DNA from: an uncultured delta proteobacterium
Lineage (GTDB): Bacteria; Desulfobacterota; RBG-13-43-22
NCBI GenBank assembly: GCA_963743305.1
Contig: CAVUPH010000014.1
Span: 416,001 to 480,000, forward strand
Direction: 5' to 3'
Length of the DNA: 64,000 bases
Below are positions 25,993 to 52,800 of the stretch, in pieces; the first letter of the stretch is position 1; each line of letters begins with the position of its first letter. The notes under the pieces are model-generated. The model was not told the origin of the DNA, searched no databases, and saw nothing but the letters and a program-made list of their open reading frames with translations. Made by a program: the position numbers and the translations under genes.

Positions 25993-27621
25993 TTATCCCA
26001 ATATCGCCTTGAGATCCTCGTCCGGGGTGGTGATGGGCATGACGTTGAACGTCTTTACCAACACATCCAGGACGTTGGGGGTGATGAAGGCCGGCAGGGA
26101 GGGCCCCAGCCGAATGTTCTTGATCCCCAGGTAAAACAAGGTCAACAAAATGGCTACGGCCTTCTGCTCATACCAGGAAAGGATCATGGACAAGGGCAGG
26201 TCATTGACCCCCACATTAAAGGCCTTGGACAAGGCCACAGCGATCTGGATGGCCGAATAGGCATCGTTGCACTGCCCCACGTCCAGGAGGCGCGGGATCC
26301 CGCCGATGTCGCCCAGGTCTTTGTCGAAGAATCGGAACTTGCCGCAGGCCAGGGTCAGGACCACCGTATCTTTCGGTGCTTTTTCAACGAATTCGGTATA
26401 GTAATTACGTCCGGGTTTGGCCCCGTCGCAGCCGGCCACCAGAAAGAAGTGGCGGATGGCCTTGTTTTTTACGGCCTCGATGACCGCTCCGGCCACACCC
26501 ATGACGGTGTTGCGGCCGAACCCGACCGTGACCGTTTTCCCGTTGCTGTCTTCCGCAAAACCGGGTAAGGCCAACGCCTTTTCAATCACCGGAGCGAAGT
26601 TTTTATCGGCGATATGAGTGACCCCCGGGAAGCCCACCAAGCCGGTGGTGAAAATATTTCCCTGGTAGGATTCCTTGGGCTTCTGGATACAGTTGGTGGT
26701 CATCAGGATGGCCCCGGGAAATTCGCCGAACTCCTTGTGCTGATTCTGCCAGGCCGTGCCGTAATGGCCGTAGAAATGGGCATATTTTTTCAATGCGGGA
26801 TAGCCGTGGGTGGGCAGCATCTCGCCGTGGGTATAAACGTTGATCCCTTTGCCTTCGGTCTGTTTCAGGATCAGTTCCAGGTCTTTCAGGTCATGGCCGG
26901 AAACCAGGATGGCCTTGCCCTTTTTATGCCCTAGGGGAACCTTGGTCGGTACGGGATGTCCGTAGGTTTCCGTATTGGCGGCATCCAGGATTTCCATGGC
27001 TTTTAAATTGGCCTCCCCGCATTTCAAGGTCAGGCCCACCCAGTCGTTCAGGGTCAGGTCTTTGTTCAGGGCGGCGGCCAATCCTTCATGGATAAAGGCA
27101 TAGACGGACTCGTCTTCCTTGCCCAAGATCTGGGCATGGTCAGCGTAAGCGGCGACCCCCTTAATCCCGAAAGTGACGGTCCAAATCAGCGCATGAATGT
27201 CTCTATCCGTAGTGGTGTCTGATTGAATTCCAACCTTCTCTCCTTGGGCGATCATTCCCTCCAGGGTATCGGCCAGGATTAAATTCGCCGGTCCCTTCGG
27301 GAAATCCACTTTTCCGCCGGCCGCTTTTACCTTGGCTTTCAATTTTTCCCGCAGGGCCACGGTCTCTTTCAGTAGAGGAGCGAACCGATCGGCGTCAAAA
27401 TCCACATTGGTCAAGGTCGAAAACAAGGCCTTGACGGTAAAAATATTGGCCTCCGGGTCGCTGATGCCCACCTTGCGGCCTTCCACGGCCACCTGGGACA
27501 ATCCCCGCATGGCATACACCACCAGATCCTGCAGAGCGGCTACTTCGGGTTGCTTCCCGCAGACCCCGACTTTGGTACAGCCTTCCCCTTTGGCGGTTTG
27601 TTCACATTGATAACAAAACAT
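25993..27621 (-). CDS. hcp: hybrid cluster protein (hydroxylamine/NO reductase)
   Basis: MFCYQCEQTAKGEGCTKVGVCGK, SGHDL, THGEML, GCDG, GQCND, SWYEQKA. Confidence 0.97.
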   Translation of the reverse strand: MFCYQCEQTAKGEGCTKVGVCGKQPEVAALQDLVVYAMRGLSQVAVEGRKVGISDPEANIFTVKALFSTLTNVDFDADRFAPLLKETVALREKLKAKVKAAGGKVDFPKGPANLILADTLEGMIAQGEKVGIQSDTTTDRDIHALIWTVTFGIKGVAAYADHAQILGKEDESVYAFIHEGLAAALNKDLTLNDWVGLTLKCGEANLKAMEILDAANTETYGHPVPTKVPLGHKKGKAILVSGHDLKDLELILKQTEGKGINVYTHGEMLPTHGYPALKKYAHFYGHYGTAWQNQHKEFGEFPGAILMTTNCIQKPKESYQGNIFTTGLVGFPGVTHIADKNFAPVIEKALALPGFAEDSNGKTVTVGFGRNTVMGVAGAVIEAVKNKAIRHFFLVAGCDGAKPGRNYYTEFVEKAPKDTVVLTLACGKFRFFDKDLGDIGGIPRLLDVGQCNDAYSAIQIAVALSKAFNVGVNDLPLSMILSWYEQKAVAILLTLFYLGIKNIRLGPSLPAFITPNVLDVLVKTFNVMPITTPDEDLKAILG

Positions 27622-27899: not shown

Positions 27900-27919
27900 A
27901 TATAAATGATTATTTATAT
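27900..27919. promoter_or_regulatory. putative ArsR operator (8-4-8 palindrome)
   Basis: ATATAAAT-GATT-ATTTATAT; same arms recur at 33910-33929. Confidence 0.65.
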
Positions 27920-28022
27920 ACTTGTTGCTTCAATGGCTGATTTCAAGAATCAGGAATTTATAATGATCAAAAAGAGCAGAAACAAGATGAAGGGAATAGC
28001 GTCTGAGGCTTTTCCGGAGGAG

Positions 28023-28343
28023 ATGGGAAACCAGACGGAATGGGAACAGTCCCTATCCACGGTGGCTTTCTTAGCCAAAAGTTTGTCGGATGAAAACCGT
28101 TTGCGGGTGCTCATCAGTCTTCGCGAGGGCCGGCTTTCGGTATCCAGCCTGGTAGAGGCTTTACAATTGTCCCAGCCGCTGATTTCCCATCATTTAAAGG
28201 AATTAAAAAGGTCGCTGTTAGTCAAGGTCGAGCGCAATGGGCCTTTTATCTATTACGAACTGGCCGACAAAAGAATCCTTCAGATCATGAAAGACCTGGA
28301 GACCGTGGCCGGGGAATTACTGGCCAACCGTCGAACTTTTTAG
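28023..28343 (+). CDS. tsoR: ArsR/SmtB family repressor heading the selenoprotein operon
   Basis: LSDENRLRVL...LSQPLISHHLKELK...YYEL; GGAGG RBS before ATG 28023; symbol recalled from curated family names, not verified. Confidence 0.85.
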   Translation: MGNQTEWEQSLSTVAFLAKSLSDENRLRVLISLREGRLSVSSLVEALQLSQPLISHHLKELKRSLLVKVERNGPFIYYELADKRILQIMKDLETVAGELLANRRTF

Positions 28344-28358
28344 TCAGGAGAACACCCG

Positions 28359-28814
28359 ATGCCTGGAAAAACGATACTGGAATTTATCGAGAAACTCGAG
28401 CCGGAAAAAGCCTTAAAAGAAATTTCTCTGGCGGTCAAAACCCTTTTCCCCATGCTGGACCAGGAATCCCGTCTGAATTTTGTGGTCAGCCTGATCGGGG
28501 ATGCCGGGGCGGACAAGGTGGCCAGCCTGGTGAACCTCTGACTGGCGGAATGCATGGACGAAGGTGTCGATCCAACCAAGATGTGCCAGAGTTTAGTGGA
28601 TAAGGTCTTTCAATCCAAACAGTTAAGAACCGTGGCCGAACCGGATATTTTAGCGCTTTTTGAAGACTGGCTGGAGGAATTGGAAGAGGAAATCATAAAT
28701 ATGGTAAAAAAGACCGGTTCCGATGATCTGGGGAAGTTGGCCCGAGGATTGGGGTTGTCCCGGGCCGGCGTAAATTTCCTGATCACCAAATTAAAGAGGG
28801 AAGAAAGGATTTAA
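28359..28814 (+). CDS. tsoA: predicted selenoprotein with LULAEC (UxxxC) motif and C-terminal HTH-like region
   Basis: ORFs 28359-28541 and 28554-28814 are in frame and separated only by TGA 28539-28541; SECIS-like hairpin 28555-28574; symbol recalled, not verified. Confidence 0.8.
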
Positions 28815-28848
28815 AAAAGCCCTGACTTTTTCAGTGGAGGTGTTCGTT

Positions 28849-30583
28849 ATGAAGTAGAAAACCATTTTATTGCCGCATTCTCGGTGGCTCTGGTAATCGG
28901 GGCTCTCTGGTTTACCAACCGGGCCGTAACTCCAACGGCGGCTACCTGGGAAGATGTTCTCCAGGAAGCCCAGCGCGGCGGCTATCGGATCATCAAGACG
29001 GATGAGATCTGGGAACGGTATCAAAGAAATCCGCAGGACCTGATGCTGGTGGATACCCGTCAGGAATGGGAATATCGAACCGGACACCTCAAAGGAGCGG
29101 TTAATTTTCCCATGGAACCCACGGCCTGGTCCCGCTGGCGGAAACAGAAGGAGATGGCGACCTTTTTGGGACCCGATAAAAACCGCTTCCTCGTCTTTTA
29201 CTGAGCGGGCTTGACCTGAGTCCGCAGCGACTCCGCAGCCCGGGTGGCTGTCAAACTTGGCTACAAAAATGTATATCGCGATCCCTACGGATTTCCGGAA
29301 TGGCAGGCCAAAGGTTATCCCATCAGCAGCGCTCCGGCCGGCCTGTCCGGGGAAGCGGCCCCTCCCCAGACCCCCGGCCCCTTGTACGGCTGGGCCATGG
29401 TCTGGACCCTGCTGGGCATTTTTGCCGGAGGGATTGCCTTGAACCTGACACCATGTGTCTATCCCATGATCCCTATTACCGTTTCCTATTTTGGAGGGCG
29501 GAGCGGAGAGGGAAAGGGAAAACTATTGACCCATGGCCTGTTATACCTGGGGGGCCTATCGGCCACCAACTCCATTTTGGGGGTTGTCGCGGCCTTGACC
29601 GGTGGTCTTATGGGGGCCATGCTTCAAAACCCGATGGTCCTACTGGTCGTGGCCGCTATTCTGGTTTTTTTCGCCTCCAGCCTCTTCGGGTTTTGGGAAC
29701 TTCGTCTTCCCGGCGGCCTGACCCAGCATGGCTTCCAAATCTTATGCCGGATATTTCGGTTCCCTGTTTATGGGCTTGACGCTGGGCGTGGTGGCCGCAC
29801 CCTGCATCGGTCCTTTCGTTCTCGGACTCTTAACCTGGGTGGCCAGTATGGGGTCCCCATGGCTGGGGTTTATTGTCTTTTTTACCTTGAGCCTGGGCCT
29901 GGGGCTGCCTTTATTTTTTCTGGCCATGTTTTCCGGCAAGATCGAAAAACTACCCCGATCCGGAGAGTGGATGATCTGGGTTCGAAAACTGATGGGCTGG
30001 ATCCTGGTGGGCATGGCAGCCTATTTCATTCGGCCCCTCCTACCTGAAACCGTAGCGGTATTCCTTTTCGTTCTGGTAGCCTTGGGCGCCGGACTGCACC
30101 TCGGCTGGCTGGACAAGTCCCAGGCCGGCTTTCGGGCCTTCGCCTGGATGAAGGGTGGGGCCGGGATCGCCGGTCTGGTGATAGCCACTTTTATCCTGGG
30201 TTCCTGGATGATCCGCGGGCCGGGGGTGGCCTGGAATGCTTATTCGGACAAGCTTCTGGCGGAAGCGGCCCAAAACCGGAAACCGGTCATCATCGATTTC
30301 TATGCCACTTGGTGTACCCCCTGCCGGGAACTGGAGGAAATCACCTTTCACCAGCCTGAGGTGGTCACAAAGGGGAACCGGGATTATATTATGATAAAAG
30401 TGGACGTGACCCAAGCCGGGAACCCACTGAATGAACGGCTTCTCAGTCAGTATGGAATTAAAGGGGTCCCGACTGTGGTTTTTATAGATTCGAGCGGGAA
30501 AGAGCATCTGGAACTTAAGGCTGGTCGATTATCTTCCGCCGGACCAGTTCCTGAAGAAAATGGAAACAATAAATCAAAAATAA
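28849..30583 (+). CDS. tsoB: predicted double-selenocysteine rhodanese / DsbD transmembrane / thioredoxin fusion
   Basis: VFY-TGA-AGLT-TGA-VRSDSAA read through (29202, 29217); LTPC and AAPC DsbD-beta Cys; WCTPC Trx domain; apparent +1 frameshifts at about 29727 and 30517; start region 28849-28884 uncertain; symbol recalled, not verified. Confidence 0.8.
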
Positions 30584-30599
30584 GAACACGGGAGGTTTG

Positions 30600-31109
30600 A
30601 TGGCGTATATAGAAAAATTTTTGGGAAGACGGGTCGAGGTCCCGGAGGATCGACGTTATGTCGTCAAACCGGGACTTTGGGCCAAGGCCGAAGGGGCGGA
30701 GGTGCGATTTGGGTTAACCGAACCGGAGTTGGTATTAGCCGGCGGTGTCAATGACCTGGAATGGCTGGTCTGGGATGGAGAAGAGGTGGAACAGGGACAA
30801 TCCATTGCCATCGCCATCACCGGAAAAATTAAATATATTGACGCTCCCGTAGCCGGGGTCCTGCGGCTGAATCCCGGGATAAAGGAAGCCACGGCCCTCA
30901 TTGCCCGGGACTCCTATGGAGAGGGATGGTTGTTTCAAATCAAAACCAGGTCCGAAGCGAATTTCGCCCTGGAGGAACTGTCTTCGGCTGAAGCCTATGT
31001 AGAGAGCCTCCAAAATTCAGAAGGATGCAAGAATCCGGAAGGACTAAAGGGCGGGGTTTCCGGGATCTGCAAGGCGGTTTATACCGGGATCAAAGAACAA
31101 AAATTTTAG
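30600..31109 (+). CDS. GcvH-like (glycine cleavage H / lipoyl carrier fold) protein with 2-Cys C-terminal extension
   Basis: RRY...LWAK...FGLT...APVAG...DSYGEGWLF. Confidence 0.75.
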   Translation: MAYIEKFLGRRVEVPEDRRYVVKPGLWAKAEGAEVRFGLTEPELVLAGGVNDLEWLVWDGEEVEQGQSIAIAITGKIKYIDAPVAGVLRLNPGIKEATALIARDSYGEGWLFQIKTRSEANFALEELSSAEAYVESLQNSEGCKNPEGLKGGVSGICKAVYTGIKEQKF

Positions 31110-31130: not shown

Positions 31131-31448
31131 ATGGTCAAAGTTCGCTGTTTTTATAATGAACCCAATGGAAAGCCTTGAAAGCATTTTCAGGAAATGATGC
31201 CCAGGTTGGGCCAAAAGTACGAAATTGAGGTTGAAATACTATCCAAACCTATAGCTGAATACAATACGGATGAATATTTTGAGTTGGAATTGCCGGTGGC
31301 TCCAGCCATCATGGTGGATGACCAGATCCTGGTGGAAGGCTCCGATGTTTCTGAAGAAAAATTGGAGAACGCCATCCGCGCCAAACTGGGCCTGGAGGCT
31401 ATAGTGATAGAAAAAAAAGGGGTTCTGGGGCGGCTTTTCGGTCGGTAA
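31131..31448 (+). CDS. tsoC: predicted thioredoxin-fold selenoprotein with NEPNGKPU motif
   Basis: RBS AAGGAG and MVKVRCFYNEPNGKP-TGA(31176)-KHFQEMMPRL are in frame with ORF 31194-31448; PVAPAIMV cis-Pro-like loop; SECIS-like hairpin 31199-31211; symbol recalled, not verified. Confidence 0.8.
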
Positions 31449-31653: not shown

Positions 31654-32355
31654 GTGAAAGGGAAAACCGGTCCAGGAAAAGGGGCTATGGTAAAAGCCTT
31701 GGTATTGGTTGCATTTATTGCCGCTGCGGTATATGTTATTCGCTTTAGCCCGGTTAAAGATTTTTTGACTGTCGAGGCGATGAGACGATTCCTGGACATC
31801 TCCGGGTTTTGGGCGCCGGTGATCTTTATATTGATTTATACGGCTGGGATCTGTCTGTTGGTGCCCGGTTCGCTCCTGACCACCCTCGGGGCGGCGATCT
31901 TCGGGGCCTATTGGGGATTTCTCTACGTCCTGATCGGGGCTGTGCTGGGGGCCACCGCCGCCTTTTTTATCGGCCGGTATCTGGGCCGGGACTTTGCCGC
32001 CTCGATTGTCGGAGACCGGTTGAAGCGTTATGACGAGGCCGTGGAACGCAACGGCTTCGCCACGGTGCTGTATTTGCGACTGATCTATTTCCCTTTCACC
32101 CCGATGAACTTCGGCATGGGCTTGACCCGGGTCCGTTTCCGGGACTACTTCTGGGGCACGGTCCTGGGCATCATTGCCGGGACCTTCATCATTACGTTTT
32201 TTGTGGGAACCATCAAAGAGGTTTGGGCCACCGGAGATTGGTCGCAGCTCCTGTCCTTAAAGCTCGCATTTTCCGTAGCCTTGTTTGCTTTTTCCCTATT
32301 CATACCCAAAATTGTGAAAAAATTTAAAAAGGAGGAGACCCATGCCGACCTGTGA
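31654..32355 (+). CDS. TVP38/TMEM64 (DedA/VTT superfamily) membrane protein
   Basis: VPGS...GAAIFG...G...AFFIGRYLGRD...LRLIYFPF. Confidence 0.88.
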   Translation: MKGKTGPGKGAMVKALVLVAFIAAAVYVIRFSPVKDFLTVEAMRRFLDISGFWAPVIFILIYTAGICLLVPGSLLTTLGAAIFGAYWGFLYVLIGAVLGATAAFFIGRYLGRDFAASIVGDRLKRYDEAVERNGFATVLYLRLIYFPFTPMNFGMGLTRVRFRDYFWGTVLGIIAGTFIITFFVGTIKEVWATGDWSQLLSLKLAFSVALFAFSLFIPKIVKKFKKEETHADL

Positions 32356-32671
32356 GTATGAAGGATTGAAAATCGAGGTGGATGAAGAGGGGTATTTGCT
32401 TAACTTTGATGCTTGGAATGAAAAAGTGGCCTGTGCCCTGGCGGAGAGGGAAGGGATAACCCAGGACTGTCCCCTGAAACCCGAACAAATGGAAATTCTT
32501 AAATTCATCCGGGAATATTATAAGAAATTTGAATCCGTGCCTGTGGTCCGGGCGGTCTGCACCAATGTCCATCAACCTAAAAGTTGCGAGTACCTGCAGT
32601 TTCCCGATCCGCTGATCACCTGTAAAATCGCCGGGATTCCGAAACTGGAGACCGGTTACACCTTGATGTGA
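32342..32671 (+). CDS. TusE/DsrC family sulfur relay protein lacking the terminal Cys
   Basis: VDEEGYL...WNEKVA...FIREYY...FP...CKIAGIPK. Confidence 0.85.
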   Translation: MPTCEYEGLKIEVDEEGYLLNFDAWNEKVACALAEREGITQDCPLKPEQMEILKFIREYYKKFESVPVVRAVCTNVHQPKSCEYLQFPDPLITCKIAGIPKLETGYTLM

Positions 32672-32886: not shown

Positions 32887-33858
32887 TTAGCCGAGTACTC
32901 CAGGGAATTTAATCGCCTGTTTCATCTCAACGTAGTGAGCCGTGGCCAGAGCGGCCGTACAGCCATCGGCAGCGGCGATCACAATCTGATTGGCATACTT
33001 TTGCCTTAGGTCGCCGATGGCGAAGATCCCCGGGATACTGGTCTCGCATTTTTCATCCGTTATGACGTAGCCGCTCTGATTGACTTTAACGCCTGCAGGA
33101 ACGAGCTGGTTATTGGGAGAAAAACCAGCAAAAATGAATACGCCGTCCGTTGAAAGTTCCCTTTTTTCAGCGGTCTCTACATCTTGAAGGGAAACCGCGC
33201 AGACCCCGGATTCATTGGATATAATTTCAGTGACAACTTTCTTAAGAAGAATTTCTATTTTGGGCTCGGCCTGAACGCGCTGCTGGAGGATTCGGCTTCC
33301 CCGGAAAGCATCCCGTCGATGGACCAGGTAGACCCGCTGCGTTATTTTTGAAAGGTAAAGGGCATCCTCAAGGGCCGTATCGCCGCCCCCTACGACTAGT
33401 ACGGTTTTATCCCTGAAAAAGAACCCATCGCAGGTGGCACAGTAAGAGACGCCTTTGCCGAAGTTATCGATTTCCCCGGGAACATCGAGTTTTCGAGCGC
33501 TGCCGCCTGCAGCCAAAATCAAAGCGTGGGCCTGCAGAAGAGCGCCATTAGCCAGACGGACTGAGTGGTATTCAATTCCCGGCTCAATAGACACCACTTC
33601 GTCCTGGATCATTTCCAGGCCATACCCGCGAGCGTGGTTTAAAAATTTATCGCAAAGCTCGAACCCACTTATTTCAATGAATCCAGGATAATTTTCCACC
33701 CCTTTGGTTAAAGCCACCTGGCCGCCAGGCATTCCCTTTTCGATAAGAACCGTTTTTAGGGCCGCCCTCATGGCATAGATGCCTGCGGTAAGACCGGCCG
33801 GACCACCCCCAATAATTATAGAATCATAAAATTTGCTATTCGCAATTAAATTGCTCAT
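32887..33858 (-). CDS. trxB: thioredoxin-disulfide reductase
   Basis: IIGGGPAGLTA, GVSYCATCDG, VGGGDTA, HRRD, GIFAIGD. Confidence 0.95.
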   Translation of the reverse strand: MSNLIANSKFYDSIIIGGGPAGLTAGIYAMRAALKTVLIEKGMPGGQVALTKGVENYPGFIEISGFELCDKFLNHARGYGLEMIQDEVVSIEPGIEYHSVRLANGALLQAHALILAAGGSARKLDVPGEIDNFGKGVSYCATCDGFFFRDKTVLVVGGGDTALEDALYLSKITQRVYLVHRRDAFRGSRILQQRVQAEPKIEILLKKVVTEIISNESGVCAVSLQDVETAEKRELSTDGVFIFAGFSPNNQLVPAGVKVNQSGYVITDEKCETSIPGIFAIGDLRQKYANQIVIAAADGCTAALATAHYVEMKQAIKFPGVLG

Positions 33859-45925: not shown

Positions 45926-48900
45926 GTGATGTCCGGCCTGACCCTCTATACCAGCAACCGTTTGGAAAATCTGGCGGACCGGTTGGCCGAGGTGCTGGAG
46001 GCCCCGTTGCCTTCGCCCTTAACACCGGAAATTATTCTGGTCCAAAGCCTGGGGATGGAGAAATGGATCTCCTTGGAATTGGCCCGGCGCCTGAAGATCT
46101 GCGCCAATATGCACTTTCCCTTCCCCAACCATTTTATCACCGGTGTTTTCAGACAGGTCCTGCCCGAATTGGAAGAAACCCCGCTTTTCAACCCTGAAAT
46201 CATGGCCTGGCGGCTAATGAAAATCCTGCCACCCCTTTTGAAAGAGAAAGGGTTTGACGCCCTATTCCTCTATTTATCCGAGGGGCCTACCGACGTGAAA
46301 CTTTTTCAACTTTCGCGGCGGGTGGCCGAGCTTTTTGACCAATACCTCCTTTTTCGTCCGGAGATGATCTTCCTTTGGGAAAAGGGGCAAGAGGATCATT
46401 GGCAGGCGGTTCTCTGGCGGAATATGGTTCGGGGAATCGAAAATAAACACCGCGCCGCCTTACAAAAAACCGTCCTGGAAAAAATCAGGAGTTCAGTCTT
46501 CCAGCCGGAGATCCTGCCTAAGCGGATGGCCGTCTTCGGGATCTCAGCCCTGCCCTTCTTTCATGTGGAAATGCTGGCGGCCCTATCCCGTTTCATGGAG
46601 GTCAACCTTTTCCTGATGAATCCCTGCCGGGAATACTGGGGGAACCTGCTGACCCGAAGGGAAACGCAGCAGGTCAAGGAAAAGGCTAAGGGAAAGCAGG
46701 CCCTTACGGAATACCTGCATCTAATGCCGGGAAACAGCCTTCTGGCTTCTCTGGGCCGACTGGGTCAGGATTTTTTTGATATGATTCTGAATTTTGAGCC
46801 TCGAGAGGAAGATGGCCCGGTTGATCCAGGGCAAAAAACGCTTCTCAACTGCCTTCAGCAAGACATTCTTTTTCTGCGTGAACGCGGTGCGGGGGATGAA
46901 GGAAAAAAAGAAATCGACCCCGCTGACCTTTCTATTGAAATCCATTCCTGCCACAGCCCCATGAGGGAGGTGGAGGTTCTCCAGGACCGCCTTCTTTCCC
47001 TATTTGAAGCACACCCGGGATTGCTTCCCAAAGATGTTATGGTTATGACTCCGGACATCAAAACCTATGCCCCTTATATTCAGGCGGTTTTTTCGGTGCC
47101 CCCGGAGGATCCGCGCTGGATCCCCTTCAGCCTGGCCGATCGGGGGATTCGGCAGGAAAGTCCCTTGGCCGATCTGATTTTGGGAATGCTTGACCTGCGG
47201 GGAAGCCGGTTCGGAGTTTCCCGGGTGATGGCATTTCTGGAGTCGCCTCCGGTGCAGAGGAGATATTCCCTGGCCGAGGAGGACCTGGAGCTTATCCGTC
47301 GATGGATAGAGGATACCCGGATCCGTTGGGGCATTGACCGGGAAAGTCGGAAGATCCTGGGTCTTCCCGACTATCCGGAAAACACCTGGGGAGCGGGCCT
47401 GGAAAGAATGTTGCTGGGTTACGCCCTACCTCGCCGGGAGGATGAGCTCTTCATGGGAATCCTGCCCTATGACCGGATTGAGGGGAGCGAGGCCTCGGTC
47501 CTGGGAAATTTTGTGCATCTGGCCAATCGTCTATTCGCTCTGGAAAAAGATCTGGGGGAACCGCGGTCCCTGGGGGCGTGGGGTGATTATCTGACCCGAG
47601 TGCTCGACGAATTTTTTTCTTCCGACGAAGAGACCGAACGGGACCTCCTTTTTTTTCGCCGGCTATTGCGACAGTTTGGGGAAAGACAGGAACTCTCCGG
47701 GTTTGACGAAAAAATCAACCTGGAAGTGATCCGATCCCTGCTGAAATCTACCCTGGAAAACGAGGGGTTCGGGACCGGCTTTATAACCGGGGGGGTGACC
47801 TTTTGCGCCATGTTGCCTATGCGCAGTATCCCCTTTAAGGTGATCGGCCTCCTGGGAATGAACGATGACGCCTATCCCCGGCCGACCCAATCTCTGGGAT
47901 TTGACCTGTTGGCCAAGAATCCCCAGCCGGGAGATCGCTCGCGGAGGAACGACGACCGTTACCTTTTTCTGGAGGTCCTGCTTTCCGCCAGGGAGAGGCT
48001 CCATATTAGTTATGTGGGACAGAGCATTCAAGATAACAACCCGCGGCCGCCTTCGGTCCTGGTCAGCGAGCTTTTGGACTATCTGGAAGCAGGATACAGG
48101 ATTTCCGGAAAAGAGATCCGCGGGCAAATCGTTCGGCGGCATCCCCTTCAGGCCTTTAGCCCGGAGTATTTCAAAAAGAATCCGGAAGGCCGGTTCTTCA
48201 GTTATTCCCAGGAGAACCTCGAGGCGGCCCGGCAGGCGCAAAACCAGCTTCCTGAAGTAAGCCCGTTTATCGCTCAAGGCCTTCCCGAGCCGCCACTGGA
48301 ATGGAAAACGATCGAGGTCGGGCAGCTCATCCGGTTTTTCGGAAACCCGTCCCAATTCATCCTCAACCAGCGTTTGGGGATCTATTTAGAGGAAGGAGAG
48401 GCGATATTAGAGGAAACCGAACCCTTCGAGGTCAAAGGGCTGGATAAATATGTCCTTGAACAGGAGCTGGTCGAAAGGGGAGCGGAAAACCGCAGCCTGC
48501 CGGCAGCTTTTTCAGCCGTCCGGGCGGCGGGATTGCTTCCTCACGGAAGACCCGGTGAGTGTTTTTTTCAAAAGACCTGCCGGTCCATCGATGATTTTCT
48601 GGAAATACTCCACCCTTACCGGGAAGGAGGACCGCTGGCGCCCCTGGAAGTGGATCTGGCCCTGGGAGGGTTCCGGGTCGTGGGCCGGATTGAGGGCCTT
48701 TACCCTCAGGGGCTGATTCATTTCCGCTACGCCAAGGTGAAACCAAAAGACCGTCTGCGACTCTGGATTAGGCATCTTTTGGTGAACCGCATCGGCTTTC
48801 CGGGCTATCCGGATCAGGCCCGACTCTTCGGTCAGGATAAAGCCCGCACTTACCCGTCGGTCCCAGACAGTGATGCGCTGTTACAAGAGCTACTCGAGCT

Positions 48901-49165
48901 TTACTGGCGGGGACTGCAAAAGCCCGTCCATTTCTTTCCGCACACTTCCTGGGTTTACGCCGAGGCCTTATGGAAAAAGAAAAAAAAGGAGGAGGCCTTG
49001 AAAATTTCCCGGATAGTCTGGGAAGGATCTGACTTCAACCGGGGAGAGGACCAGGACCCCTATTATCGGGTCTGCTTTGAACACCGGGACCCTTTGGATG
49101 AAGAATTCGAGACCCTGGCCGAGAATGTTTTTCTGCCGGTGCTGCAGTGCGAACGGAAGAGTTGA
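45926..49165 (+). CDS. recC: exodeoxyribonuclease V gamma subunit
   Basis: SNRLENLA, NPCREYWG, CHSPMREVEVL, PMRSIPFKVI. Confidence 0.95.
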   Translation: MMSGLTLYTSNRLENLADRLAEVLEAPLPSPLTPEIILVQSLGMEKWISLELARRLKICANMHFPFPNHFITGVFRQVLPELEETPLFNPEIMAWRLMKILPPLLKEKGFDALFLYLSEGPTDVKLFQLSRRVAELFDQYLLFRPEMIFLWEKGQEDHWQAVLWRNMVRGIENKHRAALQKTVLEKIRSSVFQPEILPKRMAVFGISALPFFHVEMLAALSRFMEVNLFLMNPCREYWGNLLTRRETQQVKEKAKGKQALTEYLHLMPGNSLLASLGRLGQDFFDMILNFEPREEDGPVDPGQKTLLNCLQQDILFLRERGAGDEGKKEIDPADLSIEIHSCHSPMREVEVLQDRLLSLFEAHPGLLPKDVMVMTPDIKTYAPYIQAVFSVPPEDPRWIPFSLADRGIRQESPLADLILGMLDLRGSRFGVSRVMAFLESPPVQRRYSLAEEDLELIRRWIEDTRIRWGIDRESRKILGLPDYPENTWGAGLERMLLGYALPRREDELFMGILPYDRIEGSEASVLGNFVHLANRLFALEKDLGEPRSLGAWGDYLTRVLDEFFSSDEETERDLLFFRRLLRQFGERQELSGFDEKINLEVIRSLLKSTLENEGFGTGFITGGVTFCAMLPMRSIPFKVIGLLGMNDDAYPRPTQSLGFDLLAKNPQPGDRSRRNDDRYLFLEVLLSARERLHISYVGQSIQDNNPRPPSVLVSELLDYLEAGYRISGKEIRGQIVRRHPLQAFSPEYFKKNPEGRFFSYSQENLEAARQAQNQLPEVSPFIAQGLPEPPLEWKTIEVGQLIRFFGNPSQFILNQRLGIYLEEGEAILEETEPFEVKGLDKYVLEQELVERGAENRSLPAAFSAVRAAGLLPHGRPGECFFQKTCRSIDDFLEILHPYREGGPLAPLEVDLALGGFRVVGRIEGLYPQGLIHFRYAKVKPKDRLRLWIRHLLVNRIGFPGYPDQARLFGQDKARTYPSVPDSDALLQELLELYWRGLQKPVHFFPHTSWVYAEALWKKKKKEEALKISRIVWEGSDFNRGEDQDPYYRVCFEHRDPLDEEFETLAENVFLPVLQCERKS

Positions 49166-52100
49166 CCTTGATCCCTCAAGACCTCAAAACCCCCGGTTTT
49201 GATCTCTTGAATAGTCCCCTGGAGGGAACCAACCTGATTGAAGCCGGGGCCGGCACGGGAAAGACCTATACCCTCACCGGCCTCTTTCTGCGACTGATCC
49301 TGGAGAGGCGGCTGCCGGTAAACGAGATCCTGGTGGTGACTTATACCGTAGCCGCCACCGAGGAATTGCGCGATCGGATCCGCCGCAAAATCCGAGAAGC
49401 CCTGGAGGCTTGTTCCGGCGGAACCAGCCCGGATTCGTTTTTGCAGAGTTTGCTCCTTAAAGTCCCGGACCGGGAAGAGGCGGCCGTCCTCCTGCACGCC
49501 GCCCTCCTGGATTTCGATGAGGCGGCTATTTTCACCATTCATGGCTTTTGCCAGCGGACGCTGCAGGAGAGCGCGTTTGAAAGCGGCAGCCTGTTTGATA
49601 CGGAATTGGAACCTGAAGAGGAAACCGAGCTGATAGCGGAAATCGTCCAGGATTTCTGGCGCCGGCACTTTTATGATGCTCCCCGGGAGTGGGTCCAGTA
49701 CGCCCTGAGCCTGAACCTCGGTCCGGTTACCTTCCTGGAGCTTTTGAAAAAAGGGCGGTTTCAGTCCGACTTGAAAATTATTCCCCGGACCGATCCGGTG
49801 GTTTTCACAACCCTGGAGCCTTTTCGCCGGGCCTATGTCGAATTGCGGAATGCTTGGCCGAAGGCTCGGGACGAGGTGGAACAGGCCTTCAGCGATCCGG
49901 CTTTGACCGCCGACTACAGGGATCAGGTAGCTGCCAGACTGAGTCTGATGGATGCCTTTTTAGAGGAAAACAGCCCGGTCTTTCCCCTGCCGGAAAAATT
50001 CGAAAAATTCACTTCCAGGGGTTTGGAGAAGAAAACCAGGAAAAAGTTGAAAACCCCGCGGCATCCCTATTTTCTATTGTGCGATGCCCTGAAACTGGCG
50101 GCCGAGGCGCTTCGCCTGGAAATGGACCGCCACTTGCTGTATCTAAAAGGGGCGGTTTTTCAGTTCCTGGGGCAGGAACTGCCGATTCGGAAGCAGCGGC
50201 GCAACATCCAATCGTTTGATGATCTCCTGATCCGCCTGCGCCGATCTCTGGAAAAGCCTGGGGGGGACGAACTGTCCCGAGAGGTCAGGAAACGATATCG
50301 GGCCGCCCTCATTGATGAGTTCCAGGACACGGATCCCGTCCAGTACGCTATCTTCAGGAATATTTTCGGACAAGGGGGCTCCATATTATTTATAATCGGC
50401 GACCCCAAGCAGGCCATTTACAGATTCCGGGGTGCCGACCTGTTTGCCTACCTGAAGGCTGCCGGTCGGGTGGATCGTCGCTACACCCTGGACCGGAACT
50501 GGCGTTCCGAACCGGGATTGATTGCCGCGGTCAATACGGTCTTCGGCTGCCGGGAAAACGCCTTTCTCTACCGGGAGATCCCCTTTGAACCTGCGGTAGC
50601 GGAGGAAGGGGGATCGCAGGCCTTTTTAACCATCCGGGGGAAAAGGGAACCGCCGCTGCACTTCTGGCAGGTTAATTCGGGCGATGGAGGCCTCATTAAT
50701 AAAGGGGAGGCCGAAGCCCTGATTCCCGGGGCGGTGGCCGGCGAAATCTCCCGCCTCCTGAGGCTCGGAAAGAATGGCGAAGCCCTCCTGGACAGCCGGC
50801 GGCTGCGCGAGGGAGATCTGGCGGTACTGGTGCGCACCAACCGGCAGGCCCGGCTGATGCAGACGGCCCTGGGCCGATTGAAAATCGCCAGTGTCCTTCA
50901 TACTACCGGAAATTTGTTTGACAGCTACGAGGCACAGGAGGTGCAGCGGGTACTGGACGGGATGGTTCATCCCCTTCGGGAGGGTCGGATCAGGGCGGCG
51001 CTGGCCACCAACCTGCTGGGAGTGACCGGGGAAACCCTGGAAAGGCTCACCCGCGATGAGGCCGGGTGGGAGGAGTGGCTTTCCCGATTCAGGGAATATT
51101 ACGACATAGGGGAAAAGAAGGGGTTTATCCGGATGTTCCGGTATTTTCTGCTTCGGGAAAAGGTCCGTTCTCGCTTGCTTGGCTTGCCTAACGGGGAGAG
51201 ACGGCTGACGAATGTGCTCCACCTTTCCGAGGTGCTCCACCAGAGAGTTGTTGAAGAAAAGCTAGGCCTGACCGGACTCTCAAAATGGCTGGCCAGGCAA
51301 TGCGACCCTGGTTCCCCGCGGCTGGAGGAACATCAGCTTCGGCTGGAAAGCGATGCCGAGGCCGTAAAAATCGTTACCATCCACAGGAGCAAGGGGTTGG
51401 AGTACCCGATCGTTTTTTGCCCCTTTAACTGGGATCCATCGAAGATTAAAAAGGGGGCCTTTAGTTTCCACGACCGCGAGGAAGACTGGAGGCTCAACCT
51501 GGTGCTGGACCCGAAGGCGGGGGGGGATCGCGATTTGGTCGAATTGGCCGCACAGGAGGAACTGGCAGAAAACCTGAGGCTGCTCTATGTGTCGCTGACC
51601 CGTGCCAAAAACCGCTGTTATCTCATTTGGGGAAGGTTTCGGGACGCGGAGACCTCCTCCCTGGCCTACCTGCTGGCTCCTCCCGGGGACACTGACGAAA
51701 ATATTGTCCAAAAAGTGGAAACCCATTTTCAGGCCAAGACCGATGTCAGGCTCCGGCAGGACTTGGACGGACTGGCCCGGAAATCCGAGGGAATGATCCG
51801 GGTAACCGAGCTGCCGAGAGTCCCGGGTGAGGAAGTTAGCCCGGATGAAATAGACTGGGATGAATTGAGCGGGAGGGTTTTCCGGGGGACTGTTTCCCGG
51901 GAATGGCAGATCGCCAGTTTTTCCCGACTGACCGTCGGGGTTAAAGAAACCTTTGATTCCCCGCAATCGGAAGACGCCTCCGCTGACCTGCCGGACCACG
52001 ACCAGGCCCAGGACGCCGAAGAACCGTTTTTGGATCCGGAGCCGTTCTCCATTTTTGCCTTTCCCCGGGGGGCCAAAGCGGGGACTCTGCTGCATGATCT

Positions 52101-52800
52101 TTTGGAAAATCTGGATTTCAGCGAAACAGACCCTCTGGTCATAATGAAATTGGTGGCGGATAAACTGGCAGAATACGGGTTTGATCCGAAGTGGCAGGAT
52201 ACGGTCGTCGGCTTAATCGGCCGGGTGCTGAAGGCGCCGCTCCCCTCCCCTTTCGGGAGCTTCAGCCTGGGGCAGATCTCCCGGGCCGAGCGTCTCAGTG
52301 AGCTCGAATTTAATTTTCCCCTTCAGCGGGTAACCCCCCAGGGGCTGGCAAAAATTTTTGCCGATCACGGGGGGATAGGGCTGTCGGCCGGATTTTCCAC
52401 CCGGCTTGAAAACCTAGATTTTCAACCGGCCCGAGGGTTCATGAAAGGTTTCATCGACCTGGTTTTTCAATTCCAGGGGCGCTATTACCTGGTGGACTGG
52501 AAATCAAACTTTCTGGGGGGGAGAGCGAAAGACTACCACCGGGAGAACCTGGTTCGGACCATGGAGGACCATTTTTACCGCCTGCAGTTAAATCTCTACG
52601 TGCTGGCCCTGCACCGTTATTTAAAATACCGGCTCCCCGGGTATCGCTATGCAGAACATTTCGGCGGTGCCTTTTATCTCTTTCTGCGGGGCATAAACCT
52701 GGAGGAAGAAAAGGGATTCGGGATCTACTCTGAATCGCCGCGGGAGGGGCTGATTGAGGTCCTGAGCCAAAGCCTGATCGGGGAGGAGGCCGCTTCATGA
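49147..52800 (+). CDS. recB: exodeoxyribonuclease V beta subunit
   Basis: EAGAGTGKT, DEFQDTD, GDPKQAIY, TIHRSKGLEY, nuclease GFIDL...DWKSN. Confidence 0.96.
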   Translation: MRTEELTLIPQDLKTPGFDLLNSPLEGTNLIEAGAGTGKTYTLTGLFLRLILERRLPVNEILVVTYTVAATEELRDRIRRKIREALEACSGGTSPDSFLQSLLLKVPDREEAAVLLHAALLDFDEAAIFTIHGFCQRTLQESAFESGSLFDTELEPEEETELIAEIVQDFWRRHFYDAPREWVQYALSLNLGPVTFLELLKKGRFQSDLKIIPRTDPVVFTTLEPFRRAYVELRNAWPKARDEVEQAFSDPALTADYRDQVAARLSLMDAFLEENSPVFPLPEKFEKFTSRGLEKKTRKKLKTPRHPYFLLCDALKLAAEALRLEMDRHLLYLKGAVFQFLGQELPIRKQRRNIQSFDDLLIRLRRSLEKPGGDELSREVRKRYRAALIDEFQDTDPVQYAIFRNIFGQGGSILFIIGDPKQAIYRFRGADLFAYLKAAGRVDRRYTLDRNWRSEPGLIAAVNTVFGCRENAFLYREIPFEPAVAEEGGSQAFLTIRGKREPPLHFWQVNSGDGGLINKGEAEALIPGAVAGEISRLLRLGKNGEALLDSRRLREGDLAVLVRTNRQARLMQTALGRLKIASVLHTTGNLFDSYEAQEVQRVLDGMVHPLREGRIRAALATNLLGVTGETLERLTRDEAGWEEWLSRFREYYDIGEKKGFIRMFRYFLLREKVRSRLLGLPNGERRLTNVLHLSEVLHQRVVEEKLGLTGLSKWLARQCDPGSPRLEEHQLRLESDAEAVKIVTIHRSKGLEYPIVFCPFNWDPSKIKKGAFSFHDREEDWRLNLVLDPKAGGDRDLVELAAQEELAENLRLLYVSLTRAKNRCYLIWGRFRDAETSSLAYLLAPPGDTDENIVQKVETHFQAKTDVRLRQDLDGLARKSEGMIRVTELPRVPGEEVSPDEIDWDELSGRVFRGTVSREWQIASFSRLTVGVKETFDSPQSEDASADLPDHDQAQDAEEPFLDPEPFSIFAFPRGAKAGTLLHDLLENLDFSETDPLVIMKLVADKLAEYGFDPKWQDTVVGLIGRVLKAPLPSPFGSFSLGQISRAERLSELEFNFPLQRVTPQGLAKIFADHGGIGLSAGFSTRLENLDFQPARGFMKGFIDLVFQFQGRYYLVDWKSNFLGGRAKDYHRENLVRTMEDHFYRLQLNLYVLALHRYLKYRLPGYRYAEHFGGAFYLFLRGINLEEEKGFGIYSESPREGLIEVLSQSLIGEEAAS

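What the first reader, a model, noticed from the sequence alone, without database searches (positions are those of the whole stretch)
28849..30583. Rhodanese with both active-loop cysteines replaced by Sec (UAGLTU), fused to DsbD beta and gamma domains
Seen: VFY-TGA-GCG-GGC-TTG-ACC-TGA-VRSDSAARVAVKLGYKNVYR reproduces the rhodanese loop YCxGxxCxRS with two UGAs five codons apart. It follows an N-terminal hydrophobic anchor and continues into a DsbD/CcdA TM domain (LTPC, AAPC) and a WCTPC thioredoxin domain. Established: DsbD passes electrons beta to gamma to alpha. Inference: the alpha domain is replaced by an extracytoplasmic diselenide-forming rhodanese, giving a self-contained trans-membrane persulfide/polysulfide or selenium reductase. 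Two closely spaced Sec in one bacterial protein is also unusual for decoding.
Basis: partly seen in the sequence, partly recalled or inferred. Interest (0 to 1): 0.85.

Follow-up and report, generated by a model that had tools for sequence, protein, structure and literature searches.

The report
TsoB: known double-selenocysteine rhodanese/DsbD fusion
This gene is a copy of tsoB, an already catalogued membrane protein of sulfate-reducing bacteria that joins a sulfur-transferase-like domain carrying two selenocysteines to an electron-carrying DsbD-type module, and in this assembly it is interrupted by three single-base shifts.

Summary
Window 28849-30583 (+) encodes an N-terminal anchor, a rhodanese domain with the loop FY-UGA-AGLT-UGA-VRS, a DsbD-type membrane domain (LTPC, AAPC) and a DsbD-gamma-like WCTPC thioredoxin domain.

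It is not new. [quoted passage not shown] It sits in the published Tso "three selenoprotein operon", and TsoR, TsoA, a GcvH-related gene and TsoC are all present in the window. Intact orthologues score 1013-1025 bits against a cut-off of 805. All 51 species loci that a residue-neutral loop pattern found carry TGA at both positions.

Two conserved hairpins follow the UGAs. Hairpin B is a canonical SECIS, shown by compensatory changes and by the same CGGGU loop in paralogues. Hairpin A contains UGA-2 and is frozen at synonymous sites.

The window's copy has three 1-nt indels and a TAG at codon 3. Its lineage shows 23 synonymous against 3 non-synonymous changes, and selD is also frameshifted. I put assembly error at about 0.65 and a recent pseudogene at about 0.35.

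The proposed function, a trans-membrane reductant relay to an outward-facing diselenide loop, is inferred and not tested.

The parts
27906..28343 (+). tsoR, an ArsR/SmtB-type regulator upstream of the operon
   Evidence: NCBIfam NF045707 at 154.9 bits (cut-off 115); Pfam HTH_5
28359..28814 (+). tsoA, the LULAxC-motif selenoprotein, with in-frame TGA at 28539-28541 (NL-U-LAEC)
   Evidence: Translation; NF045695 at 227.4 bits (cut-off 170); the LULA.C motif lies upstream of tsoB in 35 of 51 loci
28836..28851 (+). Shine-Dalgarno GGAGG (28836-28840) and ATG start (28849-28851) of tsoB
   Evidence: Read directly; aligns with the start codons of the congeners
28855..28871 (+). 5' lesions of this copy: TAG at codon 3 (28855-28857) and a one-base deletion placed at 28866-28871
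   Evidence: Alignments with G001-G003. If the missing base lay 5' of the TAG, the TAG would fall out of frame (my reading)
28866..28916 (+). N-terminal hydrophobic anchor (FIAAFSVALVIGALWFT)
   Evidence: In the G003 orthologue the matching segment has hydropathy peak 2.56, follows a K/R-rich N-terminus, and forms helix 2-21 in the model
29001..29312 (+). Rhodanese domain
   Evidence: PF00581 at 54.2 bits; aligns with the solved rhodaneses 6mxv, 3d1p and 6k6r; pLDDT 76-93 in the orthologue model
29202..29204 (+). UGA-1 (Sec), at the canonical catalytic Cys position of rhodanese
   Evidence: Aligns with the Cys of FYCGG in 6mxv and FYCAS in 3d1p. TGA in 51 of 51 loci
29217..29219 (+). UGA-2 (Sec), within a two-residue enlargement of the active-site loop
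   Evidence: Aligns with the Cys of the non-Sec homologue P0003 and with the Sec of the C-x4-U and C-x-U paralogues
29218..29233 (+). Hairpin A: GAGUC-CGCAGC-GACUC. It contains the GA of UGA-2 and begins 13 nt after UGA-1
   Evidence: RNAalifold consensus. 99.0% of cells paired, with no covariation. Its stem third positions are frozen: Asp GAC 45/45 against 20-27/45 at three other invariant Asp, and Val GTC 43/45
29235..29251 (+). Hairpin B: GCAGCC-CGGGU-GGCUGU, the canonical SECIS, beginning 15 nt after UGA-2
   Evidence: Two pairs show compensatory changes: GC 42, AU 15, GU 1, unpaired 1 at one pair, and CG 57, UA 2 at the other. The same CGGGU-loop hairpin lies 16 nt after the UGA in three Sec-rhodanese paralogues of this genome
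29400..30230 (+). DsbD-beta-like membrane domain (eight helices by hydropathy and model), with Cys codons at 29454-29456 (LTPC) and 29803-29805 (AAPC)
   Evidence: PF02683 in two halves. NF001419 DsbD profile positions 168-553. Both Cys are invariant in 45 of 45 orthologues. Helices
29722..29724 (+). CCC run with one extra C relative to the relatives (frameshift 2)
   Evidence: Contigs of relatives in 3 of 4 laid runs show 1 base left out at 29722 or 29726; in X1, 13.1 of 21.6 depth
30232..30580 (+). DsbD-gamma-like thioredoxin domain, with WCTPC Cys codons at 30313-30315 and 30322-30324
   Evidence: Thioredoxin-type Pfam families. Best fold matches are DsbD C-terminal domains 4ip1, 2fwf and 1uc7, TM 0.73-0.77 on the target
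30512..30513 (+). AA with one extra A relative to the relatives (frameshift 3). After it the conserved end RLVDYLPPDQFLKKMETINQK* is in another frame, with its stop at 30581-30583
   Evidence: At 30516-30518, 1 base is left out at the full depth of X1 (13.7), X3 (4.98) and X20 (5.38)
30600..31109 (+). GcvH-related gene lying between tsoB and tsoC in this genus
   Evidence: NF045810 at 252.4 bits (cut-off 150); PF01597
31131..31448 (+). tsoC, the NEPxGxxU-motif selenoprotein, with in-frame TGA at 31176-31178
   Evidence: Translation; NF045708 at 144.5 bits (cut-off 45); the motif lies downstream of tsoB in 48 of 51 loci

Best explanation
The gene is tsoB, the rhodanese/DsbD fusion-like double selenoprotein of the Tso operon of Desulfobacterota (odds of identity about 0.95).

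Shown:
- It has an N-terminal anchor, a rhodanese domain whose active-site loop reads U-A-G-L-T-U, a DsbD-beta-type membrane domain with its two conserved Cys, and a DsbD-gamma-type CxxC thioredoxin domain.
- Both UGAs are kept as TGA across the family.
- Two conserved RNA hairpins follow them.

Inferred mechanism (odds about 0.55). As in DsbD, reducing power from a cytoplasmic thiol or selenol donor crosses the membrane through the Cys pair of the membrane domain to the outward-facing thioredoxin domain. That domain then reduces a diselenide formed between the two Sec of the outward-facing rhodanese loop. The reduced loop would act on an extracytoplasmic sulfur, selenium or similar substrate. 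The donor may be thioredoxin, or TsoC or TsoA.

Inferred decoding. Hairpin B is the SelB-binding SECIS for UGA-2. Hairpin A serves UGA-1.

This copy. It is cut by three one-base indels and has a TAG at codon 3. I judge these more likely assembly errors (about 0.65) than a recent pseudogene (about 0.35).
For: Identity:
- The two halves of the window's gene match NF045694 over profile positions 4-290 and 291-554, at 491 and 482.2 bits.
- Intact orthologues from G003, G002 and Desulfobulbus sp. Tol-SR score 1024.1, 1024.6 and 1013.3 bits against a cut-off of 805.
- TsoR, TsoA, the GcvH-related protein and TsoC in the window all pass their cut-offs.
- The review PMC13188914 (passages of its Table and its operon section) lists TsoB as UxxxxU with two Sec, within the three-selenoprotein operon.

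Sec decoding:
- TGA stands at both positions in 51 of 51 loci found with a residue-neutral pattern, and in 12 of 12 copies in relatives.
- SelB (363.5 bits), tRNA-Sec and selD are in the genome.
- Hairpin B has two pairs with compensatory changes and the same loop as the paralogues' SECIS.
- Hairpin A is frozen at synonymous sites.

Architecture and side of the membrane:
- The DsbD profile aligns from position 168 to 571-572.
- There are eight membrane helices plus the anchor.
- The fold matches DsbD-gamma and rhodaneses.
- Sec-1 aligns with the catalytic Cys of solved rhodaneses.
- Both Sec lie in the loop between strand 112-116 and the helix that starts at R124.

Assembly error:
- Window-lineage codon changes are 23 synonymous against 3 non-synonymous.
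- selD carries a frameshift although Sec use is clearly maintained.
- Other window-specific one-base indels shorten ORFs at about 23505 and about 41370.
- The sister assembly G002 has three breaks in a gene that is a 1420-aa open frame in the window.
Against: - No experiment on any TsoB was seen. The primary paper (Haft & Tolstoy 2025) is not held.
- SelA was not found in this 90%-complete genome.
- Hairpin A shows no covariation, because it never varies. Its loop CGCAGY lacks the GGU or GU seen in the other SECIS loops of this genome.
- The homologue P0003 has Gly at the Sec-1 position. A pair of redox residues is therefore not universal in the wider family.
- The membrane part of the model is only moderately confident: pLDDT mostly 50-65, pTM 0.50.

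Against assembly error:
- rpoB, rpoC, gyrA and ileS, about 13 kb in all, have no break.
- Three indels in 1.7 kb is well above the window's background, roughly 10 window-specific indels in about 40 kb of three-way alignment.
- The TAG is a substitution, not an indel.
- No run holding this strain could be found (best share of words 0.16), so no read evidence exists for the window's own indels.
Confidence: 0.85

Rival explanations
1. The window's copy is a genuine, recently inactivated pseudogene. The family is functional, but this strain has lost TsoB through one nonsense codon and three frameshifts.
For: There are four lesions in 1.7 kb. There are none in about 13 kb of rpoB, rpoC, gyrA and ileS. 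The TAG is a base substitution. No second tsoB copy exists in the genome. The copies in G017 and L070 are also truncated, and G003 holds a second, broken copy.
Against: Window-lineage changes are 23 synonymous against 3 conservative non-synonymous, which is not what a decaying gene shows. tsoA, tsoC, tsoR and the GcvH-related gene are intact. selD is likewise frameshifted in this assembly, although at least six rhodanese-domain matches keep in-frame TGAs. All three indels are length changes in runs of two to four identical bases.
Confidence: 0.35
2. One SECIS serves both UGAs. Hairpin A does not bind SelB and acts as a collapsible spacer. Folded, it brings hairpin B to about 14 nt of single strand from UGA-1. 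Once the ribosome melts it, hairpin B lies 15 nt from UGA-2.
For: Hairpin A spans 16 nt, almost exactly the 15-nt offset between the UGAs. Its loop lacks the GGU or GU of the other SECIS loops. In the U-A-U paralogue on contig C37, one hairpin follows two UGAs at 16 and 22 nt. The C-x4-U paralogue, which has only the second Sec, has no hairpin A (my reading of the sequence).
Against: This is purely geometric reasoning with no binding or read-through data. Hairpin A could equally be a second SECIS with a divergent loop, or a pause element. Its sequence is also constrained by the V-R-S-D-S peptide.
Confidence: 0.25
3. Two separate SECIS elements. Hairpin A is a second SelB-binding element dedicated to UGA-1, and hairpin B is dedicated to UGA-2.
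For: Each hairpin starts 13-15 nt after its UGA, close to the 16 nt seen for SECIS elements of paralogues in this genome. Both are under RNA-level constraint.
Against: The loop of A (CGCAGY) is unlike the CGGGU, AGGUG or GGU loops of the other SECIS elements seen here. There is no covariation in A.
Confidence: 0.2
4. The TGAs are ordinary stops. On this view the locus holds a short truncated rhodanese gene and a separate DsbD-like gene, not a fusion selenoprotein.
For: Gene callers in public data cut the protein there. Many database representatives end at query residue 117 or begin at residue 132-133.
Against: The frame stays open and conserved through both TGAs in every orthologue. The stops are never TAA or TAG in 51 of 51 loci. 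The five codons between them are conserved as A/S/T/G/E-G-L-T/A. A covarying SECIS follows. Cys stands at the aligned positions in paralogues and in P0003. The curated family model spans both parts.
Confidence: 0.02

Closest known systems
TsoB, rhodanese/DsbD fusion-like selenoprotein (NCBIfam NF045694; Haft & Tolstoy 2025 as cited in review PMC13188914)
   Same: Domain order, the UxxxxU loop with two Sec, and the operon partners TsoR, TsoA and TsoC. Intact orthologues pass the curated cut-off.
   Different: Nothing at family level. This copy is split by three one-base indels and has a TAG at codon 3. In this genus a GcvH-related gene lies between tsoB and tsoC.
DsbD (E. coli-type protein-disulfide reductase, NF001419/PRK00293)
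   Same: The membrane domain with one Cys in each of two helices, and the C-terminal CxxC thioredoxin (gamma) domain. The profile aligns from position 168 to 571-572, and the fold matches 4ip1, 2fwf and 1uc7.
   Different: There is no immunoglobulin-like alpha domain. A membrane-anchored rhodanese domain with two Sec stands in its place. The score is 238 bits, below the 330 cut-off.
Single-domain rhodaneses (PF00581; solved 6mxv, 3d1p, 6k6r; Sud 1qxn)
   Same: The fold, and the position of Sec-1 at the catalytic Cys after the central strand.
   Different: The loop is two residues longer (C-X6-R against C-X4-R) and carries a second redox residue. Sec stands in place of Cys. The domain is tethered to a membrane reductase.
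Other Sec-rhodaneses: forms 1-4 in the review's Table, and the LYCAU family NF041203 (CxU)
   Same: Sec lies in the rhodanese loop, and a homologous SECIS hairpin is encoded by the S-A-R-V-A helix. Paralogues in this genome carry the same CGGGU loop.
   Different: Those have one Sec and are stand-alone. TsoB has two Sec, spaced by four residues, plus a second hairpin. One paralogue of this genome (contig C37) reads U-A-U.
E. coli fdhF-type bacterial SECIS (recalled from general knowledge, not from a call)
   Same: A stem-loop inside the coding region, a fixed short distance 3' of the UGA, with G/U in the apical loop.
   Different: Here two UGAs lie 15 nt apart, and two tandem hairpins follow them. 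The first hairpin includes the second UGA.

Membership tests
TsoB (NCBIfam NF045694) | Whole-protein score over the curated cut-off of 805 bits | tested here: inconclusive
   The window's copy is split. Its halves score 491 bits (profile 4-290) and 482.2 bits (profile 291-554), each under 805 on its own. Intact orthologues at 91-94% DNA identity score 1024.1 and 1024.6 bits.
TsoB (NCBIfam NF045694) | UxxxxU motif with two Sec in the rhodanese loop | tested here: met
   FY-U-AGLT-U-VRS at 29202-29219. The motif is as listed in the review's Table.
TsoB (NCBIfam NF045694) | Rhodanese, DsbD membrane and thioredoxin domains in one polypeptide | tested here: met
   Pfam. Single open frames in 9 of 11 relatives' copies. 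45 of 54 orthologues are 560-600 aa.
TsoB (NCBIfam NF045694) | Operon with TsoA (LULAxC) and TsoC (NEPxGxxU) | tested here: met
   Both are in the window and over their cut-offs. The TsoC motif lies beside tsoB in 48 of 51 loci and the TsoA motif in 35 of 51. Some misses are loci cut by contig ends.
DsbD (NF001419) | N-terminal periplasmic alpha domain | tested here: not met
   The profile match starts at position 168 of 574. A rhodanese domain occupies the N-terminal part.
DsbD (NF001419) | Membrane domain with two conserved Cys, and a gamma CxxC domain | tested here: met
   C201 and C317 are invariant in 45 of 45 orthologues; in WCxPC the first Cys is in 45 of 45 and the second in 44 of 45. 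Fold matches to DsbD-gamma.
DsbD (NF001419) | Score over the curated cut-off of 330 bits | tested here: not met
   238-241 bits for intact orthologues.
Rhodanese (PF00581) | Profile match, with the catalytic residue after the central strand | tested here: met
   54.2 bits against 22.2. Sec-1 aligns with the catalytic Cys of 6mxv, 3d1p and 6k6r. In the model, strand 112-116 is followed by the loop and then a helix from residue 124.
Rhodanese (PF00581) | Six-residue active-site loop (C-X4-R/T) | tested here: not met
   HMMER opens a two-residue gap in all three solved rhodaneses opposite T-U of the loop. The loop here is C-X6-R.
Bacterial SECIS | Conserved stem-loop a short fixed distance 3' of the UGA, supported by covariation | tested here: met
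   This holds for hairpin B, which starts 15 nt after UGA-2 and has two compensatory pairs, with 99.7% of cells paired. Hairpin A starts 13 nt after UGA-1 and has structure and synonymous-site constraint, but no covariation.
Bacterial SECIS | Binding by SelB and Sec insertion | not testable with these tools
   SelB and tRNA-Sec genes are present. No binding or labelling data.

The most novel reading that the evidence does not exclude
Hairpin A is a dedicated decoding device for the first of two UGAs that lie only 15 nt apart. It is a conserved 16-nt hairpin that contains the second UGA. One possibility is that it is a second SECIS with a non-canonical loop. The other is that it is a collapsible spacer: it first brings the single canonical SECIS into register for UGA-1, and after the ribosome melts it the same SECIS is in register for UGA-2. 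Either way, this would be a natural solution to inserting two Sec within six codons in bacteria. I found no description of it in the papers I could search. The primary TsoB paper could not be read.
Probability: 0.45. Interest if true: 0.6.

Novelty: already known. Interest (0 to 1): 0.3.

Why it matters
It still matters in three smaller ways.

1. TsoB has no experimentally shown function in anything I could read. Its anatomy makes a testable prediction: the DsbD electron path ends in an outward-facing rhodanese loop with two Sec.

2. The two tandem hairpins give a concrete and cheap test of how bacterial SelB copes with two UGAs 15 nt apart. That is relevant to engineering proteins with several Sec.

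3. This copy shows how selenoprotein genes in metagenome assemblies can look broken, through in-frame TGAs plus residual one-base indels. It also shows how lineage-specific synonymous and non-synonymous counts and comparison with sister genomes help to judge that.

Tried and rejected
Read evidence for the frameshifts. The look-up of sequencing runs found no run holding the strain; the best share of words was 0.16 of 187 sampled words. I laid four runs of relatives at 85% likeness. Their contigs lack the extra bases, which says nothing about the window's own strain. Two of the four are metatranscriptomes that cover parts of relatives' genes. I do not count that as proof of expression.

Domain docking. 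Complex prediction on the thioredoxin and rhodanese parts of the Cys-type homologue P0003, without alignments, returned 'no answer' with score 0.00. It is reported here only and is not evidence either way. I did not send the Sec-containing domains, because that tool takes proteins by code 11 only.

A hairpin directly after UGA-1 (GCGGGC...GUCCGC). I rejected it because third-position changes in the 5' arm are not compensated (my reading).

Pyrrolysine at the TAG. ARAGORN lists a tRNA-Sec and no tRNA-Pyl. I did not pursue this further.

Rfam. No family matches the hairpins; there were three chance-level hits with E of 1.3 or more.

Literature. The primary paper (Haft & Tolstoy 2025, mSystems) is not held. 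I saw it only as reference 64 of the review PMC13188914, of which I read passages of the Table, the methods, the operon section and the reference list. Of BSepDB (PMC13326102) I read passages only, and it mentions neither rhodanese nor Tso. Two searches for how bacteria decode closely spaced UGAs gave nothing specific. No supplementary files were opened. Those of the primary paper may bear on the SECIS question and on distribution.

Local indel rates from blastn gaps are rough. Many gaps are paired alignment artefacts or lie between genes, and the open-frame measure ignores TGA.
Full report
WHAT IS THERE. On the + strand, a Shine-Dalgarno GGAGG (28836-28840) and ATG 28849 open a gene that ends at TAA 30581-30583. 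Read with TGA as Sec, the main frame gives a hydrophobic N-terminal segment and a rhodanese domain. The loop ...FLVFY-U-AGLT-U-VRSDSAARVAVKLGY has its UGAs at 29202-29204 and 29217-29219. After the loop comes the first half of a DsbD-type membrane domain with LTPC. A second frame continues with the rest of the membrane domain (AAPC) and a WCTPC thioredoxin domain. A third frame holds the conserved C-terminal end RLVDYLPPDQFLKKMETINQK. Pfam confirms Rhodanese (54.2 bits), DsbD_TM in two halves (80.8 and 62 bits) and thioredoxin-type families.

WHAT IT IS. [quoted passage not shown] The scores are 491 bits on profile positions 4-290 and 482.2 bits on positions 291-554. Each half is under the 805-bit cut-off only because the gene is split. 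Intact orthologues from two congeners and from Desulfobulbus sp. Tol-SR score 1024.1, 1024.6 and 1013.3 bits.

The neighbours are the rest of the published operon, and all pass their cut-offs:
- TsoR, an ArsR/SmtB regulator (27906-28343, 154.9 bits against 115).
- TsoA, with the motif NL-U-LAEC (28359-28814, TGA at 28539, 227.4 bits against 170).
- A GcvH-related protein (30600-31109, 252.4 bits against 150).
- TsoC, with NEPNGKP-U (31131-31448, TGA at 31176, 144.5 bits against 45).

[quoted passage not shown] It describes the Tso "three selenoprotein operon" and cites Haft & Tolstoy 2025 (PMC13188914; passages read). I could not read the primary paper. The finding is therefore an independent rediscovery of a catalogued family.

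DISTRIBUTION AND THE CASE FOR SEC. In 41 related genomes, 11 besides the window's own hold an orthologue with two in-frame TGAs. Nine of these are single open frames of 578-633 aa, one is frameshifted (G017) and one is cut by a contig end (G007). A scan of one genome per species returned 80 loci. Of L023-L074, 51 of 52 matched a loop pattern that allows any residue at the two positions, and all 51 read U at both. The miss is L068, whose match begins only at residue 108. These loci come from Desulfobulbaceae, Desulfobacteraceae, Syntrophobacterales, Desulfobaccales and Desulfarculus-type genomes, including two isolates. The protein query carried Cys at these sites, so the search did not favour TGA.

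Cys occupies the aligned positions elsewhere. A periplasmic stand-alone paralogue of this genome reads YCGFTKCTRS, another reads YCQGST-U, and a 591-aa non-Sec homologue (P0003, 50% identity, 802.9 bits) reads FYGADLSCDRS. The genome has SelB (363.5 bits), a tRNA-Sec and selD. SelA was not found; the genome is 90% complete. Of its 14 rhodanese-domain matches, 6 contain in-frame TGA.

THE TWO HAIRPINS. RNAalifold on 61 distinct sequences gives two adjacent hairpins.

Hairpin B (29235-29251, GCRGCY-CGKGU-RGCYGU) starts 15 nt after UGA-2. On 59 distinct 60-nt rows, two of its six pairs show changes on both sides: GC 42, AU 15, GU 1, unpaired 1 at one pair, and CG 57, UA 2 at the other. In all, 99.7% of its cells are paired. 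Over both helices together, sliding the partners by one to three columns drops pairing to 22-60%. The rows are related, so these are not probabilities. Three Sec-rhodanese paralogues of this genome carry a hairpin with the same CGGGU loop 16 nt after their UGA. Hairpin B is therefore the family's SECIS.

Hairpin A (29218-29233, GAGUC-CGCAGY-GACUC) starts 13 nt after UGA-1 and includes the G and A of UGA-2. It never varies, so it shows no covariation. Its stem third positions are nevertheless frozen. Asp126 is GAC in 45 of 45 orthologues, against 20, 24 and 27 of 45 at the three other invariant Asp. Val123 is GTC in 43 of 45, with 2 GTT that still pair. Other invariant Val outside the two hairpins use all four codons. 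Third positions in loops and in the linker vary freely. Its loop lacks the GGU or GU of the other SECIS loops seen here.

Hairpin A spans 16 nt and the UGAs are 15 nt apart. It may therefore be a second SECIS, or a spacer that folds to bring hairpin B into register for UGA-1 and melts to leave it in register for UGA-2. I cannot choose between these. The C-x4-U paralogue, which lacks the first Sec, has no such hairpin, but that is a single case.

ANATOMY AND LIKELY MECHANISM. Sec-1 aligns with the catalytic Cys of solved rhodaneses (6mxv, 3d1p, 6k6r). Sec-2 lies in a two-residue enlargement of the loop. An AlphaFold2 model of the G003 orthologue was built from 45 sequences (mean pLDDT 71.2, pTM 0.50). 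The rhodanese part has pLDDT 76-93. The model places both Sec between strand 112-116 and the helix that starts at R124.

Hydropathy and the model give an N-terminal helix after a K/R-rich start, followed by eight membrane helices. The DsbD profile aligns from its position 168 to 571-572. The best fold matches are DsbD C-terminal domains, with TM 0.73-0.77 on the target, and rhodaneses. By the known topology of DsbD (established knowledge, not tested here), both the rhodanese domain and the thioredoxin domain face outward. The rhodanese domain stands where DsbD has its alpha domain.

The membrane Cys are invariant in 45 of 45 orthologues. In the CxxC the first Cys is in 45 of 45 and the second in 44 of 45. 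The most likely mechanism is therefore a DsbD-like relay that ends in reduction of a diselenide in the rhodanese loop. This is inference by analogy, with odds of about 0.55. The substrate is unknown. The cytoplasmic donor could be thioredoxin; a trxB-like gene lies at 32887-33858 (my reading of the sequence). It could also be TsoC or TsoA. TsoC follows tsoB in 48 of 51 loci.

THE STATE OF THIS COPY. Against three congeners (88.6-93.7% DNA identity) the coding region has exactly three indels:
- one base missing near 28866-28871
- an extra C in the run 29722-29724
- an extra A at 30512-30513.
Under the best alignment, codon 3 is TAG. If the missing base instead lay 5' of the TAG, the TAG would be out of frame and the N-terminus would keep its length (my reading).

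Evidence for assembly error:
- Codon changes private to the window's lineage are 23 synonymous and 3 conservative non-synonymous. For the three congeners the counts are 36/11, 7/6 and 50/27.
- selD is split by one frameshift in the same assembly.
- Other window-specific one-base indels shorten ORFs at about 23505 and about 41370 relative to the relatives.
- G002 has three breaks in a gene that is a 1420-aa open frame in the window.

Evidence for a real pseudogene:
- rpoB, rpoC, gyrA and ileS are unbroken.
- Three indels in 1.7 kb exceed the local background.
- The TAG is a substitution.

No run holds this strain. I put assembly error at about 0.65.

VERDICT. The family is already known as TsoB. 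What may go beyond what I could read is the tandem-hairpin arrangement behind the two UGAs.

Noticed in passing
window 28359-28814 and 31131-31448: Two more selenoprotein genes flank the finding. TsoA reads NL-U-LAEC, with TGA at 28539-28541. TsoC reads NEPNGKP-U, with TGA at 31176-31178. Consensus folds over orthologues give a hairpin with loop AGGUG about 13 nt after the TsoA UGA, and a short CCCA-GGU-UGGG hairpin about 20 nt after the TsoC UGA.
   Followed up: partly
G000 contig C37:59165-59446 (-), outside the window (locus L007): A stand-alone rhodanese paralogue reads LY-U-A-U-QDEATSARVA. It has two UGAs only one codon apart, followed by a single CGGGU-loop hairpin. It looks like a double-Sec variant of the LYCAU (CxU) family NF041203. 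Relatives also show rhodanese matches with two TGAs.
   Followed up: partly
G000 contig C26:75850-76774 (-), outside the window: selD, which itself carries an in-frame TGA (AAG-U-ASK), is split into two frames by one frameshift near IHEAG in this assembly.
   Followed up: yes
G000 contig C14:98758-100652 (-), outside the window: There is a second SelB-like match besides the full-length one on C4. It covers profile positions 1-342 at 261.7 bits, with a separate piece for positions 524-580. It may be a broken or divergent second copy.
   Followed up: no
window ~23505, ~40640 and ~41370: Window-specific one-base indels relative to sister genomes. The ones at ~23505 (against G002 and G003) and ~41370 (against G002 and G001) shorten ORFs: 177-182 aa against 254-270 aa at ~23505, and 182-196 aa against 242-243 aa at ~41370. 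They are likely further assembly indels.
   Followed up: partly
window 48841-53100 (+): A 1420-aa open frame in the window corresponds to three pieces in the sister genome G002. That assembly therefore also has clustered one-base indels.
   Followed up: no
window 25993-27621 (-), 31654-32355 (+), 32342-32671 (+), 32887-33858 (-): The surroundings have a redox and sulfur flavour. There is a DsrC/TusE-like gene (TIGR03342, 65.6 bits). There is also a gene that looks like hybrid-cluster protein, a membrane ORF with no NCBIfam hit that looks like a DedA/TVP38-type protein, and a thioredoxin-reductase-like gene. Those three are my reading of the translations and were not scanned as such. Whether they are linked to Tso in other genomes was not tested.
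   Followed up: no
G000 contig C14:114736-115128 (-), locus L002 1471-1986: A stand-alone, signal-peptide-bearing Cys paralogue of the TsoB rhodanese domain (YCGFTKCTRS, 39% identity) recurs in several relatives. It looks like the unfused, non-Sec counterpart of the TsoB head domain.
   Followed up: partly
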